Below are positions 1 through 9,000 of a DNA stretch of 43,293 nt, piece after piece. Each line of letters begins with the position of its first letter. The stretch's first letter is position 1. Made by a program: the position numbers. The DNA comes from Sulfurospirillaceae bacterium (GTDB lineage Bacteria > Campylobacterota > Campylobacteria > Campylobacterales > Sulfurospirillaceae), in NCBI GenBank assembly GCA_033723415.1, contig JAWVXD010000012.1, forward strand, positions 1 through 43,293, given 5' to 3'.

Positions 1-3000
1 ATATATCTATTATCTTCGACATCCCATATCTCAGAATTTTTCGCATGTTTAACAAAAACTGGATATAGATTCCCCTGTCCTCTCGCAAACACTTTTGTTT
101 TACGCTTCTGCAGCTCTTGATTTCTCATTATCTTCCCCTTTTAATCATTCAAATATATAAACTAACTATTATTGATTTCAAACAAGGCTGCTACACCTTG
201 TCCTCCACCGACACACATGCTGACAACAGCATACTTAACGCCTCTTCTTTTACCTTCGATCAATGCATGACCACTCATCCTAGCGCCGCTCATACCATAG
301 GGGTGTCCAATAGAAATAGATCCTCCGTTTACATTAAGACGATCATCACTGATACCTAATGTATTTTTACAATATAAAAGTTGTGAAGCAAACGCTTCAT
401 TGATTTCCCACAAGCCTATATCCTCAACCGTCAAATTGAATCTTTTTAGCAGCTTGGGAATGGCGACTACGGGACCGATACCCATCTCTTCTGGTTCACA
501 TCCTGCGACACTCATCCCTAGATAAGTTCCTAAGGGTATCAAGTTTCTTTTAATTGCTTCTTTTTCTTCCATAATGACACATGAGGACGAACCATCAGAG
601 AGCTGACTGGCATTTCCTGCTGTGATACTTGTATGAGCCCCTAAAACCGGAGTTAAATTTGACAAAGTAGTAAAAGTCGTTTCTTTTCTATTGCATTCAT
701 CTTTAACAATAGTCACTTCTTTTTGTGTCACTTCTCCACTATACTTGTCTTTAACATTCATAATGGCAGTAACAGGGATTATTTCACTGTCAAAATATCC
801 TTTTTCTTGAGCTTGAAAAGTCCTCTGTTGGCTTTGCAATGCGTATTTATCCTGTTCCTCTCTTGTAACGTTGTATCTAGAAGCTACAAGTTCAGCCGTT
901 TGAAGCATCGGCATATAATATTCACTTTTAACCAGGGCATCTTCATAATTAGATGCATTCCATGTTTCATTTTGTACCAAAGAACAGCTTTCTACGCCAC
1001 CGGCTAAGACAATATCATATCCTTCATTTACAACTTGATTGGCTGCTATTGCTATAGCATTTAGTCCTGATGCGCACTGTCTATCAACCGTAGAAGCAGC
1101 GACACTAACCGGTATATTTGCTGCCATTGCTGCATGTCTTGCTACGTTTACTCCTGCACTCCCTTGTGTCAATGCACATCCAATAGTAATATCTTCTATT
1201 TCACTTGCATCAATTTTTGCTCTTTTTATTGCTTCATTCATTGAAAATGCCATCAAACTTGGTACTGTTAAATTATTGTAACTTCCTCTGTATGCTTTTG
1301 CGATCGGCGTACGGGCAGTTGATACGATTACTGCTTTACGCATTATCATCTCCTTGAATTTTTTCCAATTGACACCATTTAGCTATAAATAATGCCGTGA
1401 TCTGAGTGATTCTTCTAACGGATTCTAAATTTACACATTCATTAAACCCGTGAATTGATCTTGCTTCCGGACCAAAAACTAAAGTCGGGGTACTGTCATA
1501 TAATCCAAAAAATCTCGCGTCTGTAGTCGCTGTAATAGATATTTTCTCTAACTCATTCTTATTTACAATTTGATTTGCATATTCTAGTGTTTGGATTGCT
1601 AATTTTGAGTTATCAGAAGTATCATCTGCTAAAGAGTATCCTTCCGCTAAAAAGCCATTATAAGTGATCGTCGGCTCATTTTTTTTCAAAAATGCATTAT
1701 TCTGAGAAGCATTTTTTAATGTTAGTTCAATATCTTCTTTTGCACTATTAATATCCTGTCCTGGATAAATTGCAATTCTTACGTCAAAAGTAGTCCATGC
1801 CGGAACCGAACTAGCCCAATCACCTCCTGCGATTTTTCCTATATTTAATTTTAACGGGTTATGTATATGTTCATAATGACAATTTTTATCTTTAGGAGCG
1901 TTCCAGCGTTTTTCCATCTCTTTAAGTGCAGTAATAAGCGGGATCACCGCTTCTATAGCATTTTCTCCATTTTCTGCTTCATATACATGTGCCGGTAATC
2001 CTTTTAAATGTACTTGAAACCAAATTACACCGATTTGCGAGGTTACTAATTTTTCTGCAAATGGTTCAGGGATGAGTGCAGCATCTGCGTGATAACCTCT
2101 TTGTAAACATGCTAATGCACCATTTCCCGTACATTCTTCTTCTACGACACTTTGAAAATATACGTTTGCAGCGGGCATATAACCTAATGATCTTAGTGCA
2201 TCTAATGCAAATAGATTACTGACTATTCCTGCTTTCATATCGCCGACACCTCTACCGTACATCCAATCATCTTTTATATACGGCTCGAAAGGAGGTCTGT
2301 CCCACATCTCTAAAGGGCCAGTTGGAACTACATCTATATGTCCATTTAAGATTAAAGATTTGCCTCGATTTGTTTTACTTTTATGCGTTGCAACAACATT
2401 TAATGCATCCTCATAATTATCTAAAACCGGTGAGAATCCATCTAAGTGAGAGATATCATCTACATCAATATTCCACATATCTACATCAAACTTTCTATTT
2501 TCTAACTCTTTTGCCATAAAGTTTTGTGCATCTTGTTCATTACCTCTAGTAGAGGGGAAAGAACTTAATTTAGATAAAAAATCTATTTCTTTAGAAAAAA
2601 GATTGTCAACAGCCTCTAAGATGAGTTTTTCTTGATTTTTATCCATAATGATTCCTAATTAAAAAGTTTTAATGTCATGATCTTGACAAATTATTTTGGC
2701 ATCTGTAGCATTTATGACATCACTTATACTTACTTCTTCAGCTATCTCGATTAGATGTAATTCTTCATCAATAATATCCAATACGGCCATATCTGTATAA
2801 ATTCTATTTACACATTTTTTAGCCGTCAACGGCAAGGTACATTTTTCCATTATCTTAGGACGACCTTTTTTGTCTAGATGAGTACTTATAATATGTACTT
2901 TACAAGCTTTTTGAGCAAGTTCAATTGCACCGCCTGCTCCAGGAGTAAATGAACCTGAGATCATCCAGTTTGCTAAATCACCATTGGCTGCAACTTGAAA

Positions 3001-6000: not shown

Positions 6001-9000
6001 TTATCGCAACTATTTGTCCTTTTTCTACGTCTATACTAATATCTTTTAAAACTTCCAAGTCACCAAAATTTTTCTTTGCATGACGAATACTGATAAATGC
6101 TTCTTTATTTAACATATCTTTCTCCACTCTTTTTATTTTGCAATCTGTACATTTCGTTCAACTTTTCTTAATACCTTTTCCATAAATAAGTTAATAATAT
6201 AGTAACAAACAGCAGCAACAATATAAAATTCAAAAGGTCTGTAAGTCTCGCTTATTGCTAATTGTGACATATGAATCAACTCAGCAACTCCAATAACAGA
6301 AACTAAAGCCGAATCTTTCAACAAAGCGATAACGTTATTGCCGATTGGCGGTACTACTCTTCTAATTGCCTGTGGTAATATTACTTTTCTTATAGATTGA
6401 AATTTACTTAAGCCTAAACTTCTTGCACCTTCATCCTGACCTTTGTCAATTGTTACGATTGCTGTTTGAATTAACTCAGAATTATAAACTGCGTAAAATA
6501 GACCTAAACCAATAACTCCAGCTACAAATGCCGGTAAATCAATACCAATGTGAATCAAACCAAAATATATAAGAAATAATTGTAACAGCAGAGGCGTTCC
6601 CATAAATATCCAAGCAAAAAATTTAATCGGATATCTAAAAAACCAATGAGCATAAAGTTCAATCATGGCAAAGAATATTCCGCCAAGTATACTTATGACA
6701 GTTGCCACAAGTGTGATTGCAATTGTCCATAATGCACCGATTAAAATCGTATTCATATATGCCGGAACAACACTAAAATCAAGACCCATAATTTTTTCCT
6801 TTTACTTTATTCATTGTATTTGCACTTTTCTATCTAGAAAATCAATTAATTTACCTACTGCAGATATCAATATAATATAAATAACACCGGCGAGGAGAAA
6901 CATCTCAAATGGTTTATACGTTGATCCAATAAAACGTTGGGCTGTATAAGTCAATTCAACGACAGATATCGTAGAAACTAATGCCGTTGCTTTTATTTGT
7001 GCGTTGATATTTACACCTAACGGTCTAATCATAAGGCGGGCAGCTTGTGGCAATACAACTTTCATCATGGTTTGAGTTTTATTTAAACCCAAAGTTCTTG
7101 CTGCTTCAATTTGACCTTTATCAATCGAGATTATTGCTCCTCGAATTGTTTCCGTCATGTAAGCACCTATATTAATTCCAAGTCCTATAATACCTGCTTC
7201 AAGTGCATTCAATTGAATGCCGACTTGTGGACCTCCAAAATATATAATAAACAACTGTAATAAGGCAGGTGTTCCTCTTATGACGCTTACATATACATTC
7301 CCAATAATTCTAAAGTATCTTTTAGTTGATAATTTTGCAAATGCTCCAAAAGCCCCACAAATTAAACCTAAGAGTATAGTTGACACTGAAAGTTCAATCG
7401 TGACTACCGTTGCTTTTAAAAAGTAAGGATATACCTTTAGCATTAAATCTATATCCATTTAAACTCCTAATCTATATAATTTATGCAAGTAGAGGCACCA
7501 TAATTCTTATCATCATATTTTAATATCAATAGCATTTTTAATTGTGGAAAGTGAAATTCTTAAAAGAGATGTTGTTACATCTGTTACGGTAGTAGTTGAT
7601 TATTGCAGTATGCACCAACTATCGTATCTATTTCCCAATCCCCGATTTTGCCTTTGTCAGTCACTTGTCTTATCCCAATATGATATGGACTCTCTATCTT
7701 TAATCTTCTTCTGCTCGAATGAGCATTCTTCTCTCTTTGGTAACTCTACTTACAGAATTTTCATTGTAATTTTTCTTCTGAGTACTGCTATCACTTTTGC
7801 AATCTCATTTTCGTATCCAAATTTTCGTTAAACTTGGAGCATGGAACTTTTTCTATATGGTTAAATGTTAAAAAACCTTTTAACTCCCTTTATATCCTAC
7901 ACTTATAAAGGGAATATGTTTTTAACATTTAACCTCTTAAAATTTGAATTAGCGAATATCCGCACCGATCCATTTTTTAGCTATTTTTGTATATGTGCCA
8001 TCTTTTTGCATTCCTTCTAAAGCTTTTTGCATAGCTTCTCTCAATTTATCATTACCTTTTCTAATCGCAATACCTGCACTATCAGAAGTTCCTGATAAAC
8101 TTGGAACATTTAATTCAGTTACTTTTACGCCGTTTTTCTTAATTGCAACCAGCACCGGGATATCATCACTTACAAATGCATCAATTCTTCCGGTATCTAA
8201 TTCCATTAATAACTCTGGCAAACCTTTATATGTTTTAATATCCCAAGAGGCATGAGTTCTTGCCCATTTTTCATGTGTCTCCCCTAAAACAACACCTACT
8301 GTGTGACCTTTAAGATCTTTTAGACTTGAAATATTTGAACCTTTCTTTACAAAGACTGCGCTATGCATCCTATAATACGGTCCAACAAAATCAACAACCT
8401 TTTTTCTCTTATCAGTTATAGACATAGATCCGACAATCGCATCGTATTTGTTCGCTAATAATCCGGCGATTATACCGTCCCAAGCAGTAGTTATGATTTC
8501 TACTTTCATTCCTAATCTTTTTGCAATTTCTCTTCCTATTGCAGGATCAAAGCCAACGACTTTATTTTGTTCATTTACAAAATTAAAAGGAGGATATGCT
8601 CCACTCATTGCTATTTTCATAACACCGCTTTTTTGTAACGTGGCTAATTCATCCGCTGAAACTGTGCTACTAGTTGCAATCAATAAAAAACTTATTAAAG
8701 CAATAAGCGTACTAATTTTTTTTACAAAACTCATTTTGTTCCTTTTTAGTTTGGTTCATTAATTATATTTTATATATAATTAAGATAGTTAAAGAATTAT
8801 TGAATAACTTAATAATTCTCACCTCATAGGAAGATCAATATATTTAATATAATTAAATATCTTTACTCTGATTAAATCATACTGTATACTTTTTCTAAAA
8901 GCAAGATAACTTTGCATTATTTTTAATCAATCAACTCATGACTGCTACTTTTTGCTACATTTAGACGAAAATGGCGATATATTTATTTATAAATGTCTGG

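What a model noticed while it worked through the whole genome (the two positions that open the first line are those of the whole stretch)
162..8734. Nine-gene operon that reads as an import-and-degrade pathway for the osmolyte N6-acetyl-beta-lysine (YodT/S/R/Q + thiola [...]
A basic-amino-acid-type ABC importer (g02339-g02336) is followed by homologues of B. subtilis YodT (class III aminotransferase), YodS/YodR (CoA transferase), YodQ (deacylase) and a thiolase, then gabT. These are the steps needed to turn N6-acetyl-beta-lysine into acetyl-CoA, acetate and GABA; the synthesis genes that join yodTSRQ in Bacillus (yodP, kamA) are replaced by an importer, so the operon is read as scavenging of this compatible solute.
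Evidence so far: Best Swiss-Prot hits: YodT 41%, CoA-transferase alpha/beta of B. subtilis 48/46%, YodQ 35%, thiolase 42%, then a GabT piece at the contig end. The aminotransferase is 66-78% identical to proteins of marine Alphaproteobacteria (Hoeflea, Leisingera, Celeribacter, Roseibium; call 186); of 62 full-length loci 40 hold binding protein, both CoA-transferase subunits and deacylase, in the same order in the three such loci viewed, and 23 also show the thiolase within the 6-kb flank. The binding protein is closest to Lys/Arg/Orn/Gln-type binders. YodT is listed as of unknown function (PMC6522883, passages read, call 189); searches for acetyl-beta-lysine catabolism or yodTSRQ found no assignment.
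(Added by a program. Inside this text positions count along the whole contig: contig position 1 is position 1 of the stretch shown here. "Call 12" and the like, gene names such as g00115 and contig names such as C1 are that model's own, and its searches are not shown. The text may have been shortened before it was handed on; [...] marks where a part breaks off. The agent that wrote the report below was given it as the finding of a first reader that could run no searches.)

Follow-up and report, generated by a model that had tools for sequence, protein, structure and literature searches.

The report
Candidate acetyl-beta-lysine breakdown operon
A coastal-sediment bacterium has borrowed a gene cluster that most likely takes up a salt-protection compound made by other microbes (N6-acetyl-beta-lysine) and breaks it down to GABA and acetate, which would attach genes to a pathway so far known only from old enzyme work, although the substrate is still inferred.

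Summary
The nine genes are real, intact and co-oriented. A gabT copy follows them; read depth shows it is one of two identical copies. The cluster is an island at tRNA-Arg, and its aminotransferase was not found in 60 family or 400 phylum genomes. It nests among marine Alphaproteobacteria.

Main new evidence: relatives pair the same aminotransferase with either CoA-transferase plus M20 deacylase (41 of 63 loci) or beta-keto-acid cleavage enzyme plus acetylpolyamine deacetylase (13 of 63), never both cleavage types; 20 of 63 add an SSAT-like acetyltransferase. Bacillota YodT loci carry beta-lysine acetyltransferase (4 of 4 scanned) and kamA (2 of 10). This converges on an omega-N-acetylated beta-amino acid, best guess N6-acetyl-beta-lysine, degraded to acetyl-CoA, acetate and GABA (about 0.6).

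Against: the enzymes miss the YodT and YodQ cut-offs, YodT orthology is unresolved, gabT is absent from 80 related loci, accessory hydrolases in relatives are unexplained, and nothing was assayed. No gene assignment turned up in ten literature searches; key older papers were not readable. This scan reached the same reading on other genomes at least five times.

The parts
9789..9865 (-). tRNA-Arg(CCT); the island begins at its 3' end
   Evidence: DNA similarity to genus relatives stops at about 9789 (query position about 1090)
9165..9719 (+). Divergent XRE-HTH plus cupin regulator (PuuR-like), from a family native to the host genus; relatives use a LysR here
   Evidence: 65-70% DNA matches elsewhere in 8 of 12 genus relatives, beside alanine dehydrogenase in the two inspected with enough flank; LysR in relatives. 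Regulation of the operon is inferred.
7949..8734 (-). Polar amino acid ABC binding protein (SBP_bac_3) with a changed pocket: Ser44 where solved homologues have Glu or Asp, invariant Glu152 and His154
   Evidence: Ser in 45 of 46 orthologues; W85, R110, E152, H154, D190 in 46 of 46
7859..7934 (-). Strong hairpin after the binding-protein gene (likely an mRNA stabiliser or terminator)
   Evidence: 16-nt perfect arms; -29.5 kcal/mol, z -6.1
7587..7778 (-). Decayed IS30 transposase remnant, at the position where many relatives have a creatininase-family gene
   Evidence: NF033563, E 1e-4; two stops; no creatininase remnant found
6811..7458 (-). ABC permease 1
6133..6789 (-). ABC permease 2
5327..6127 (-). 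ABC ATPase
3988..5340 (-). Class III (fold type I) aminotransferase of the YodT/PRK07483-like radiation; proposed N6-acetyl-beta-lysine transaminase
   Evidence: (pLDDT 94)
3299..3991 (-). 3-oxoacid CoA-transferase subunit A
   Evidence: TIGR02429 237 vs cut-off 128.5
2659..3318 (-). 3-oxoacid CoA-transferase subunit B, catalytic Glu motif intact
   Evidence: TIGR02428 244.9 vs 243.55
1336..2646 (-). M20 ArgE/DapE-type deacylase (PRK06837 subfamily); proposed 4-acetamidobutyrate deacetylase
   Evidence: NF005306 596 vs 376; PDB 3PFO E 3e-97; metal motifs invariant
162..1349 (-). Thiolase, catalytic Cys/His/Cys motifs intact
   Evidence: TIGR01930 402 vs 241
1..128 (-). Start of gabT (4-aminobutyrate transaminase), a recent duplicate of the host's native copy; runs off the contig
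   Evidence: a relative's orthologue passes TIGR00700, 578 vs 507

Best explanation
A horizontally acquired catabolic operon for an omega-N-acetylated beta-amino acid, most likely N6-acetyl-beta-lysine. Proposed steps: (1) the ABC system imports it; (2) the aminotransferase removes the 3-amino group, giving 6-acetamido-3-oxohexanoate; (3) the CoA-transferase makes its CoA ester, probably recycling CoA from 4-acetamidobutyryl-CoA; (4) the thiolase cleaves it to acetyl-CoA and 4-acetamidobutyryl-CoA; (5) the M20 enzyme deacetylates 4-acetamidobutyrate to GABA and acetate; (6) the duplicated GabT, probably with a linked aldehyde dehydrogenase, leads to succinate. The acetyl group keeps the omega-amine from cyclising onto the 3-keto group (established chemistry, recalled). 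Shown here: gene content, family identity, intact catalytic motifs, island status, the gabT duplication and the module swaps. Inferred: every substrate and the order of steps.
For: Module swap among 63 loci: CoA-transferase+M20 in 41, BKACE+acetylpolyamine-amidohydrolase-type deacetylase in 13, that deacetylase alone in 5, neither in 4, and no locus with both cleavage types (families). In 20 regions from an even draw of Alphaproteobacteria: BKACE 13, CoA-transferase 4, neither 3, both 0, with two BKACE+GNAT+M20 hybrids. BKACE acts on free beta-keto acids, and a BKACE-versus-thiolase swap has a genetic precedent in deoxyribonate catabolism (bioRxiv 10.1101/205583, passages). The same importer occurs with both module types. 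An SSAT/thialysine-acetyltransferase-like GNAT sits near the aminotransferase in 20 of 63 loci. Bacillota yodTSRQ loci carry beta-lysine N-acetyltransferase over the cut-off in 4 of 4 scanned and lysine 2,3-aminomutase in 2 of 10; one also has a thiolase and a LysP-like permease. The motif F68-x-Y70-R71-x-[HQ]-F74 is shared by 80 of 80 close relatives and at least 10 of 11 YodT-type sequences but not by the PRK07483 group. The host has no AblB, no lysine aminomutase over the cut-off and no orthologue of the GNAT, so it should need the pre-acetylated compound. The binding protein lacks the acidic residue found at that position in its five closest solved homologues, which fits a neutral chain end. 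gabT follows the thiolase here and in run X4's organism.
Against: No activity, growth or expression data. The aminotransferase scores 453 against the YodT-family cut-off of 535, and the deacylase 317 against the YodQ-family cut-off of 428. The ML tree leaves the window's clade and YodT unresolved within one radiation; the FastTree support of 95 covers 117 rows including intermediates. A closer relative than YodT (47%, Phaeobacter plasmid) sits in a different context, with an AMP-binding protein, a thiolase-domain protein and pca genes. gabT is in 0 of 80 related loci. PRK06837-type deacylases at 54-55% also occur unlinked, in two inspected genomes beside what I read as a sulfate ABC transporter. 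Four of 20 drawn loci have BKACE with no deacylase within about 7 kb, although each of those genomes has one elsewhere. Accessory genes in relatives have no place in the scheme: creatininase-family in 32 of 63, FAD oxidoreductase plus Rid, amidohydrolase plus alanine racemase, CN-hydrolase. The 80 loci are the best 80 of 262, are related to each other, and seven of the ten Bacillota loci are near-identical.
Confidence: 0.6

Rival explanations
1. Same pathway, but the imported molecule is free beta-lysine, acetylated inside the cell by an unlinked acetyltransferase; there is no osmolyte scavenging.
For: A GNAT lies in 20 of 63 proteobacterial loci. AblB lies beside yodTSRQ without kamA in several Bacillota loci. 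Spermidine/putrescine-type importers serve many BKACE loci. The host has a distant SSAT-like gene at C2:32047-32583 (56 bits against 143-224 for orthologues).
Against: 43 of 63 loci and this window have no GNAT nearby. Five GNAT-less genomes have only weak matches elsewhere, at most 37% over the full length, and five tested genomes have no AblB. The binding pocket lacks the usual acidic residue.
Confidence: 0.13
2. The true substrate is a cyclic or amide-linked derivative of beta-lysine (a lactam, a cyclic amidine or a beta-lysyl amide) that an accessory hydrolase opens first; the window keeps a trimmed version for the linear compound.
For: A creatininase-family gene with intact-looking metal ligands and no evident signal peptide sits in 32 of 63 loci, always together with this importer. 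Two other unrelated amidohydrolase types occur as accessories. An IS30 scar sits at that position in the window.
Against: No such natural compound was found in my searches. Ten of 63 loci keep the importer and core enzymes without the creatininase-family gene, and no remnant of it lies in the window gap.
Confidence: 0.1
3. Another N-acyl beta-amino acid is the substrate: a shorter or longer omega-acetamido homologue, beta-glutamine, or an N-beta-acyl compound that is deacylated before transamination.
For: The enzymes fail the YodT and YodQ membership tests. The radiation includes members in other contexts. gabT is not conserved beside the operon. The host carries an unlinked aminomutase whose best match is glutamate 2,3-aminomutase, below the cut-off.
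Against: The swapped-in deacetylase is of the acetylpolyamine amidohydrolase type and the acetyltransferase is SSAT/thialysine-like, both pointing to a terminal aminoalkyl chain. The host lineage appended gabT, which points to a C4 omega-amino product. Bacillota loci tie the same enzyme set to beta-lysine genes.
Confidence: 0.14
4. Same substrate class but a different order: CoA activation first, then transamination on the CoA ester, as with Kat in lysine fermentation.
For: A beta-transaminase that works only on CoA thioesters exists (PMC3149608, passages). The operon has a CoA-transferase.
Against: Aminotransferases 63-74% identical to the window's work with BKACE and without a CoA-transferase, and BKACE needs the free beta-keto acid. 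Kat is described there as HemL-like, whereas this protein is YodT-like.
Confidence: 0.03

Closest known systems
Aerobic L-beta-lysine pathway of Pseudomonas B4 (Barker and co-workers, 1970s-81; EC 2.6.1.65, 3-keto-6-acetamidohexanoate cleavage enzyme, EC 3.5.1.51/3.5.1.63). Recalled, no paper seen.
   Same: Proposed intermediates and logic: acetyl-protected beta-lysine, 3-transamination, C2 cleavage, deacetylation, GABA. The BKACE+GNAT+deacetylase loci in relatives match its enzyme list one to one.
   Different: The window uses CoA-transferase plus thiolase instead of the acetyl-CoA-dependent cleavage enzyme, has no acetyltransferase, and adds an importer. As recalled, the Pseudomonas enzymes have no sequences, so identity could not be tested.
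Bacillus kam/yod locus (yodT-yodS-yodR-yodQ-yodP-kamR-kamA; gene names for the fetched loci assigned by me from family hits and recall)
   Same: Same order of aminotransferase, CoA-transferase A/B and M20 deacylase (10 loci); a thiolase in one; shared F-x-Y-R-x-x-F motif. yodT, yodS and yodR are still 'putative' in the 2023 B. subtilis annotation (PMC10221552 supplement rows).
   Different: Only 31-49% identity; below the PRK06917 and PRK06915 cut-offs; no ablB, kamA or sigma-54 activator; an ABC importer and gabT instead.
Ectoine catabolism (EhuABCD importer, DoeB deacetylase, DoeD class III transaminase)
   Same: Osmolyte import-and-degrade design with a polar amino acid ABC importer, a deacetylase and a class III transaminase.
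   Different: All four Ehu models score below their cut-offs; DoeD is 28% identical; there is no beta-keto cleavage in that pathway (recalled).
Oxidative deoxyribonate pathways (bioRxiv 10.1101/205583, passages)
   Same: One substrate is cleaved by a BKACE in some bacteria and through CoA esters and a thiolase in another.
   Different: Sugar acid substrate; a dehydrogenase rather than a transaminase makes the beta-keto group.

Membership tests
Class III PLP aminotransferase | PF00202 over the cut-off; PLP Lys, DEV, SYHG and FTY motifs; fold type I | tested here: met
   331 vs 30.5; motifs invariant in 80 of 80 or nearly so; model pLDDT 94, TM about 0.9 to omega-transaminases
YodT family (NF005375/PRK06917) | Score over 535 bits | tested here: not met
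   452.9; Bacillota proteins score 745-761
YodT family (NF005375/PRK06917) | Sister-group relation to YodT in a tree | tested here: inconclusive
   Unresolved within one radiation of support 94; FastTree 95 for a 117-row clade with intermediates; no AU test run
YodT family (NF005375/PRK06917) | F-x-Y-R-x-[HQ]-F motif (taken from my own alignment, not a published criterion) | tested here: met
PRK07483 aminotransferases (NF005685) | Score over 485 bits | tested here: not met
   456.2; differs at Y70/R71
YodQ family (NF005373/PRK06915) | Score over 428 bits | tested here: not met
   316.9
PRK06837 ArgE/DapE-type deacylase | Score over 376 bits and M20 metal ligands | tested here: met
   595.8; motifs. 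Two of three Bacillota YodQ-type proteins scanned also pass this cut-off
Bacillus kam/yod locus | Linked ablB/yodP and kamA | tested here: not met
   No AblB in the genome; the only KamA-family gene is unlinked and below the cut-off; neither is in any of 80 related loci
Pseudomonas B4 beta-lysine pathway | [quoted passage not shown] | tested here: not met
   No BKACE or GNAT orthologue in the genome; both are present in relatives' loci
Pseudomonas B4 beta-lysine pathway | Transamination of N6-acetyl-beta-lysine and deacetylation of 4-acetamidobutyrate or its CoA ester | not testable with these tools
   needs enzyme assays
Ectoine importer EhuABCD | TIGR03005/03003/03004/02995 cut-offs | tested here: not met
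   316/345, 149/205, 145/197, 95/191
GabT (TIGR00700) | Full-length score over 506.65 | tested here: inconclusive
   The gene interior is missing from the assembly; the pieces are 69-80% identical to relatives' genes that pass

The most novel reading that the evidence does not exclude
This aminotransferase clade, found in 22 of 400 sampled Alphaproteobacteria and in a few Gammaproteobacteria, is the missing environmental sink for N6-acetyl-beta-lysine released by methanogens and other producers. It supplies sequences for the orphan enzymes of the Pseudomonas beta-lysine pathway in two interchangeable versions and explains B. subtilis yodTSRQ as a B12-free lysine degradation route through beta-lysine and GABA. 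The creatininase-family gene in about half the loci may also point to an undescribed cyclic form of the osmolyte, analogous to ectoine.
Probability: 0.45. Interest if true: 0.78.

Novelty: new variant of a known kind. Interest (0 to 1): 0.6.

Why it matters
If right, it gives genes to a pathway that I recall only from enzymology, gives a testable role to the unassigned B. subtilis yodTSRQ genes, and identifies who consumes a common archaeal and bacterial osmolyte in saline sediments. Named cultured strains carry the operon (for example Leisingera sp. ANG-M1, Celeribacter neptunius DSM 26471, Hoeflea alexandrii), so the test is a simple growth and enzyme experiment. This genome adds a cross-phylum transfer in which the host attached its own regulator family and a duplicate of gabT, which points to GABA as the product. 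A beta-amino acid transaminase is also of biocatalytic interest.

Tried and rejected
Citrullinase reading of the deacylase: rejected, because CtlX is arginine-deiminase-like (PMC9007349, passages). Creatininase remnant in the 490-bp gap: none, best E 0.34; a plasmid DNA search with the gap found nothing. kamA link in gammaproteobacterial genome G443: the KamA-like gene lies about 17 kb from the aminotransferase, in a separate cluster on the other strand, so it was not counted. Promoter and terminator scan: 49 and 6 sites against 42.7 and 4.8 expected, uninformative. Fold search: generic omega-transaminases only, at most 35% identity. Phage search with a YodT-type protein: three 33% hits, no context. 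No RNA holder was listed, which says nothing about expression. Runs X2 and X3 hold only scattered short pieces and were not used as evidence. Base composition does not mark the island (GC3 0.22-0.28 against 0.26-0.32 for six other window genes). Literature: ten searches found no gene assignment for acetyl-beta-lysine catabolism or yodTSRQ. Passages of PMC12361552, PMC8161961, PMC12776343 and bioRxiv 10.1101/2023.02.15.528638 gave nothing on it; PMC5743806 had no hits in text or supplement. Zhang et al. 2014 on the kam locus was not held and could discuss yod functions. The Barker papers, Bastard 2014 (BKACE substrates), Mueller 2011 (YodP) and the 2015 class III transaminase review are recalled only. 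bioRxiv supplements (NetSyn BKACE contexts) were not seen and may bear on novelty.

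
Full report
Observation. The window is contig C12 of a 2.43-Mb, 34-36% GC genome. 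I read the host as Campylobacterota from its gene style; that label comes from no call. Nine intact minus-strand genes run from 8734 to 162: binding protein, two permeases, ATPase, class III aminotransferase, CoA-transferase A and B, M20 deacylase and thiolase. Catalytic motifs are intact and invariant, or nearly so, among orthologues. A gabT start follows 33 bp after the thiolase.

Surroundings. A divergent HTH-cupin regulator lies at 9165-9719 and tRNA-Arg(CCT) at 9789-9865. DNA similarity to genus relatives ends at the tRNA's 3' end. The aminotransferase was not found at E <= 1e-80 in any of 60 family genomes or 400 sampled phylum genomes. In trees it nests among marine Alphaproteobacteria at 66-78% identity, and the deacylase, thiolase, CoA-transferase A and binding protein have their nearest rows there too. 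It is therefore an acquired island, although its base composition now matches the host. The 490-bp gap after the binding protein holds a strong hairpin (z -6.1) and a decayed IS30 piece.

gabT. The first 141 bp are shared with the end of C8, and the C-terminal part lies on C15. Run X1, which may be the source of this DNA and whose record reads 'tidal flat metagenome', has a 1,257-bp unitig there at twice the depth of the operon. A complete relative shows the native order, so the operon-linked copy is a recent duplicate. Run X4 holds the operon in pieces at roughly 85-95% identity, with gabT again directly after the thiolase. In 80 related loci gabT is absent.

What relatives say about the chemistry. 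Of 80 loci (the best 80 of 262), 63 had enough flank. CoA-transferase plus M20 deacylase occur in 41 (24 with thiolase); BKACE plus an acetylpolyamine-amidohydrolase-type deacetylase in 13; that deacetylase alone in 5; neither in 4. The one BKACE scanned passes NF053538 (499 vs 430). An even draw of 400 Alphaproteobacteria gave 22 further carriers. I fetched 20 of the 23 matches and found BKACE in 13, CoA-transferase in 4, neither in 3 and both in none, with two BKACE+GNAT+M20 hybrids. Three close gammaproteobacterial matches all had BKACE. Two unrelated ways of cleaving a beta-keto acid and two unrelated deacylases thus replace each other behind one aminotransferase and, in part, behind one importer. 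An acetyltransferase whose best solved matches include thialysine and diamine acetyltransferases is near the aminotransferase in 20 of 63 loci. The simplest reading is a beta-amino acid with an acetylated terminal amine. These loci are related to each other, so the counts describe a pattern and are not independent trials.

Link to beta-lysine. A YodT-family representative fetched ten Bacillota loci with the order aminotransferase, CoA-transferase A/B, M20; seven are near-identical. Beta-lysine N-acetyltransferase passes TIGR03827 in 4 of 4 scanned and lysine 2,3-aminomutase is present in 2 of 10; L090 also has a thiolase and a LysP-like permease. PMC4428206 (passages) says kamA and its six upstream genes form two operons in B. 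thuringiensis. The window's clade and YodT share an F-x-Y-R-x-[HQ]-F motif that the PRK07483 group lacks. However, the window's enzymes miss the YodT and YodQ cut-offs, the ML tree does not resolve them as sisters, and a closer relative sits in another context. The operon works like yodTSRQ; membership is not shown.

Acetylated or free substrate. The host has no AblB, no orthologue of the GNAT and only an unlinked aminomutase below the cut-offs. Four of five operon-bearing genomes had no match to the lysine aminomutase model, and five of five had no AblB. The binding protein has Ser44 where its five closest solved homologues have Glu or Asp, and an invariant Glu152. I infer a neutral chain end and a shifted amine site; no ligand-bound model was made. 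[quoted passage not shown]

Mechanism. Import; transamination to 6-acetamido-3-oxohexanoate; CoA transfer; thiolysis to acetyl-CoA and 4-acetamidobutyryl-CoA; CoA recycling; deacetylation to GABA and acetate; GabT and an aldehyde dehydrogenase to succinate. Gene content, motifs and swaps are shown; the substrates are inferred (0.6 for this substrate entering in acetylated form, about 0.85 for the beta-lysine skeleton counting the first two rivals). The precedent for a BKACE-versus-thiolase swap is from passages of bioRxiv 10.1101/205583. The Pseudomonas B4 pathway is recalled, not read.

What does not fit. A creatininase-family gene in 32 of 63 loci, FAD oxidoreductase plus Rid, amidohydrolase plus racemase, four BKACE loci without a nearby deacylase and unlinked PRK06837 deacylases are unexplained. 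The imported molecule could be a conjugate, and the deacylase family is not specific to this pathway.

Novelty. Ten searches found no assignment. YodT is 'unknown' in PMC6522883 (passages) and 'putative aminotransferase' in the 2023 annotation supplement (PMC10221552, rows seen). The library lacks most subscription papers and the 2014 kam-locus paper, so an earlier proposal cannot be excluded. Earlier notes of this scan reach the same reading on at least five other genomes. I looked them up after forming my own reading and do not count them as support; one gave the lead to the B. thuringiensis kam papers. Verdict: a real operon and a new variant of a biochemically known but, as far as I could find, gene-less pathway. 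It is cheap to test. Interest 0.6.

Noticed in passing
G000:C3:99992-104843 (L089 covers part): Minus-strand cluster: a regulator (GntR-like by eye), a 466-aa ORF that looks ATP-grasp-like by eye, a 527-aa KamA-family radical SAM protein closest to glutamate 2,3-aminomutase (337 vs cut-off 650) and an M20 hydrolase, next to a TAXI-type TRAP system. Possibly beta-glutamate chemistry.
   Followed up: partly
G000 ends of C12, C8, C15, C1, C13: gabT and an aldehyde dehydrogenase both appear duplicated. The native path C8-gabT-C15 (TRAP, USP)-ALDH-C1 matches complete relative G075; by elimination the island continues gabT-ALDH into C13, which holds foreign-looking genes (methylase-like and DGQHR-like by eye).
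   Followed up: partly
window 7587-7778 (-): Decayed IS30 remnant inside the operon, also covered by run X4's organism, so it predates their split; the search found no intact IS30 in the genome.
   Followed up: yes
L023:7033-7842 and orthologues (32 of 63 loci): Conserved creatininase-family hydrolase of unknown substrate, tied to this ABC importer.
   Followed up: partly
L100 and L101 (metagenome loci): A YodT/PRK07483-like aminotransferase divergent from a Kce-like BKACE and a KamA-family aminomutase, suggesting another aminomutase-transaminase-cleavage route.
   Followed up: no
L175 (Phaeobacter inhibens plasmid pP66_d): A related aminotransferase (47%) with a second aminotransferase, an AMP-binding protein, a thiolase-domain protein and an OB-fold gene next to pob/pca genes; a candidate aromatic beta-amino acid pathway.
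   Followed up: no
L177:14405-19915 (G443): Cluster of a KamA-like gene, two ORFs that look like D-Ala-D-Ala ligases by eye, an HDAC-domain protein and a small ORF; unlinked to the operon.
   Followed up: no
window 29832-37940 (+): Branched-chain-type ABC importer followed by putA (proline dehydrogenase plus aldehyde dehydrogenase), probably proline uptake and use.
   Followed up: no
window 38808-43293 (-): LapD-like GGDEF protein, LapG-like C93 peptidase and the end of an RTX-repeat protein running off the contig: a Lap-type adhesin system.
   Followed up: no
L070 (CP051228.1): A record labelled Mesoflavibacter (Bacteroidota) at 64% GC with an alphaproteobacterial-type operon; probably a mislabelled or chimeric MAG.
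   Followed up: no
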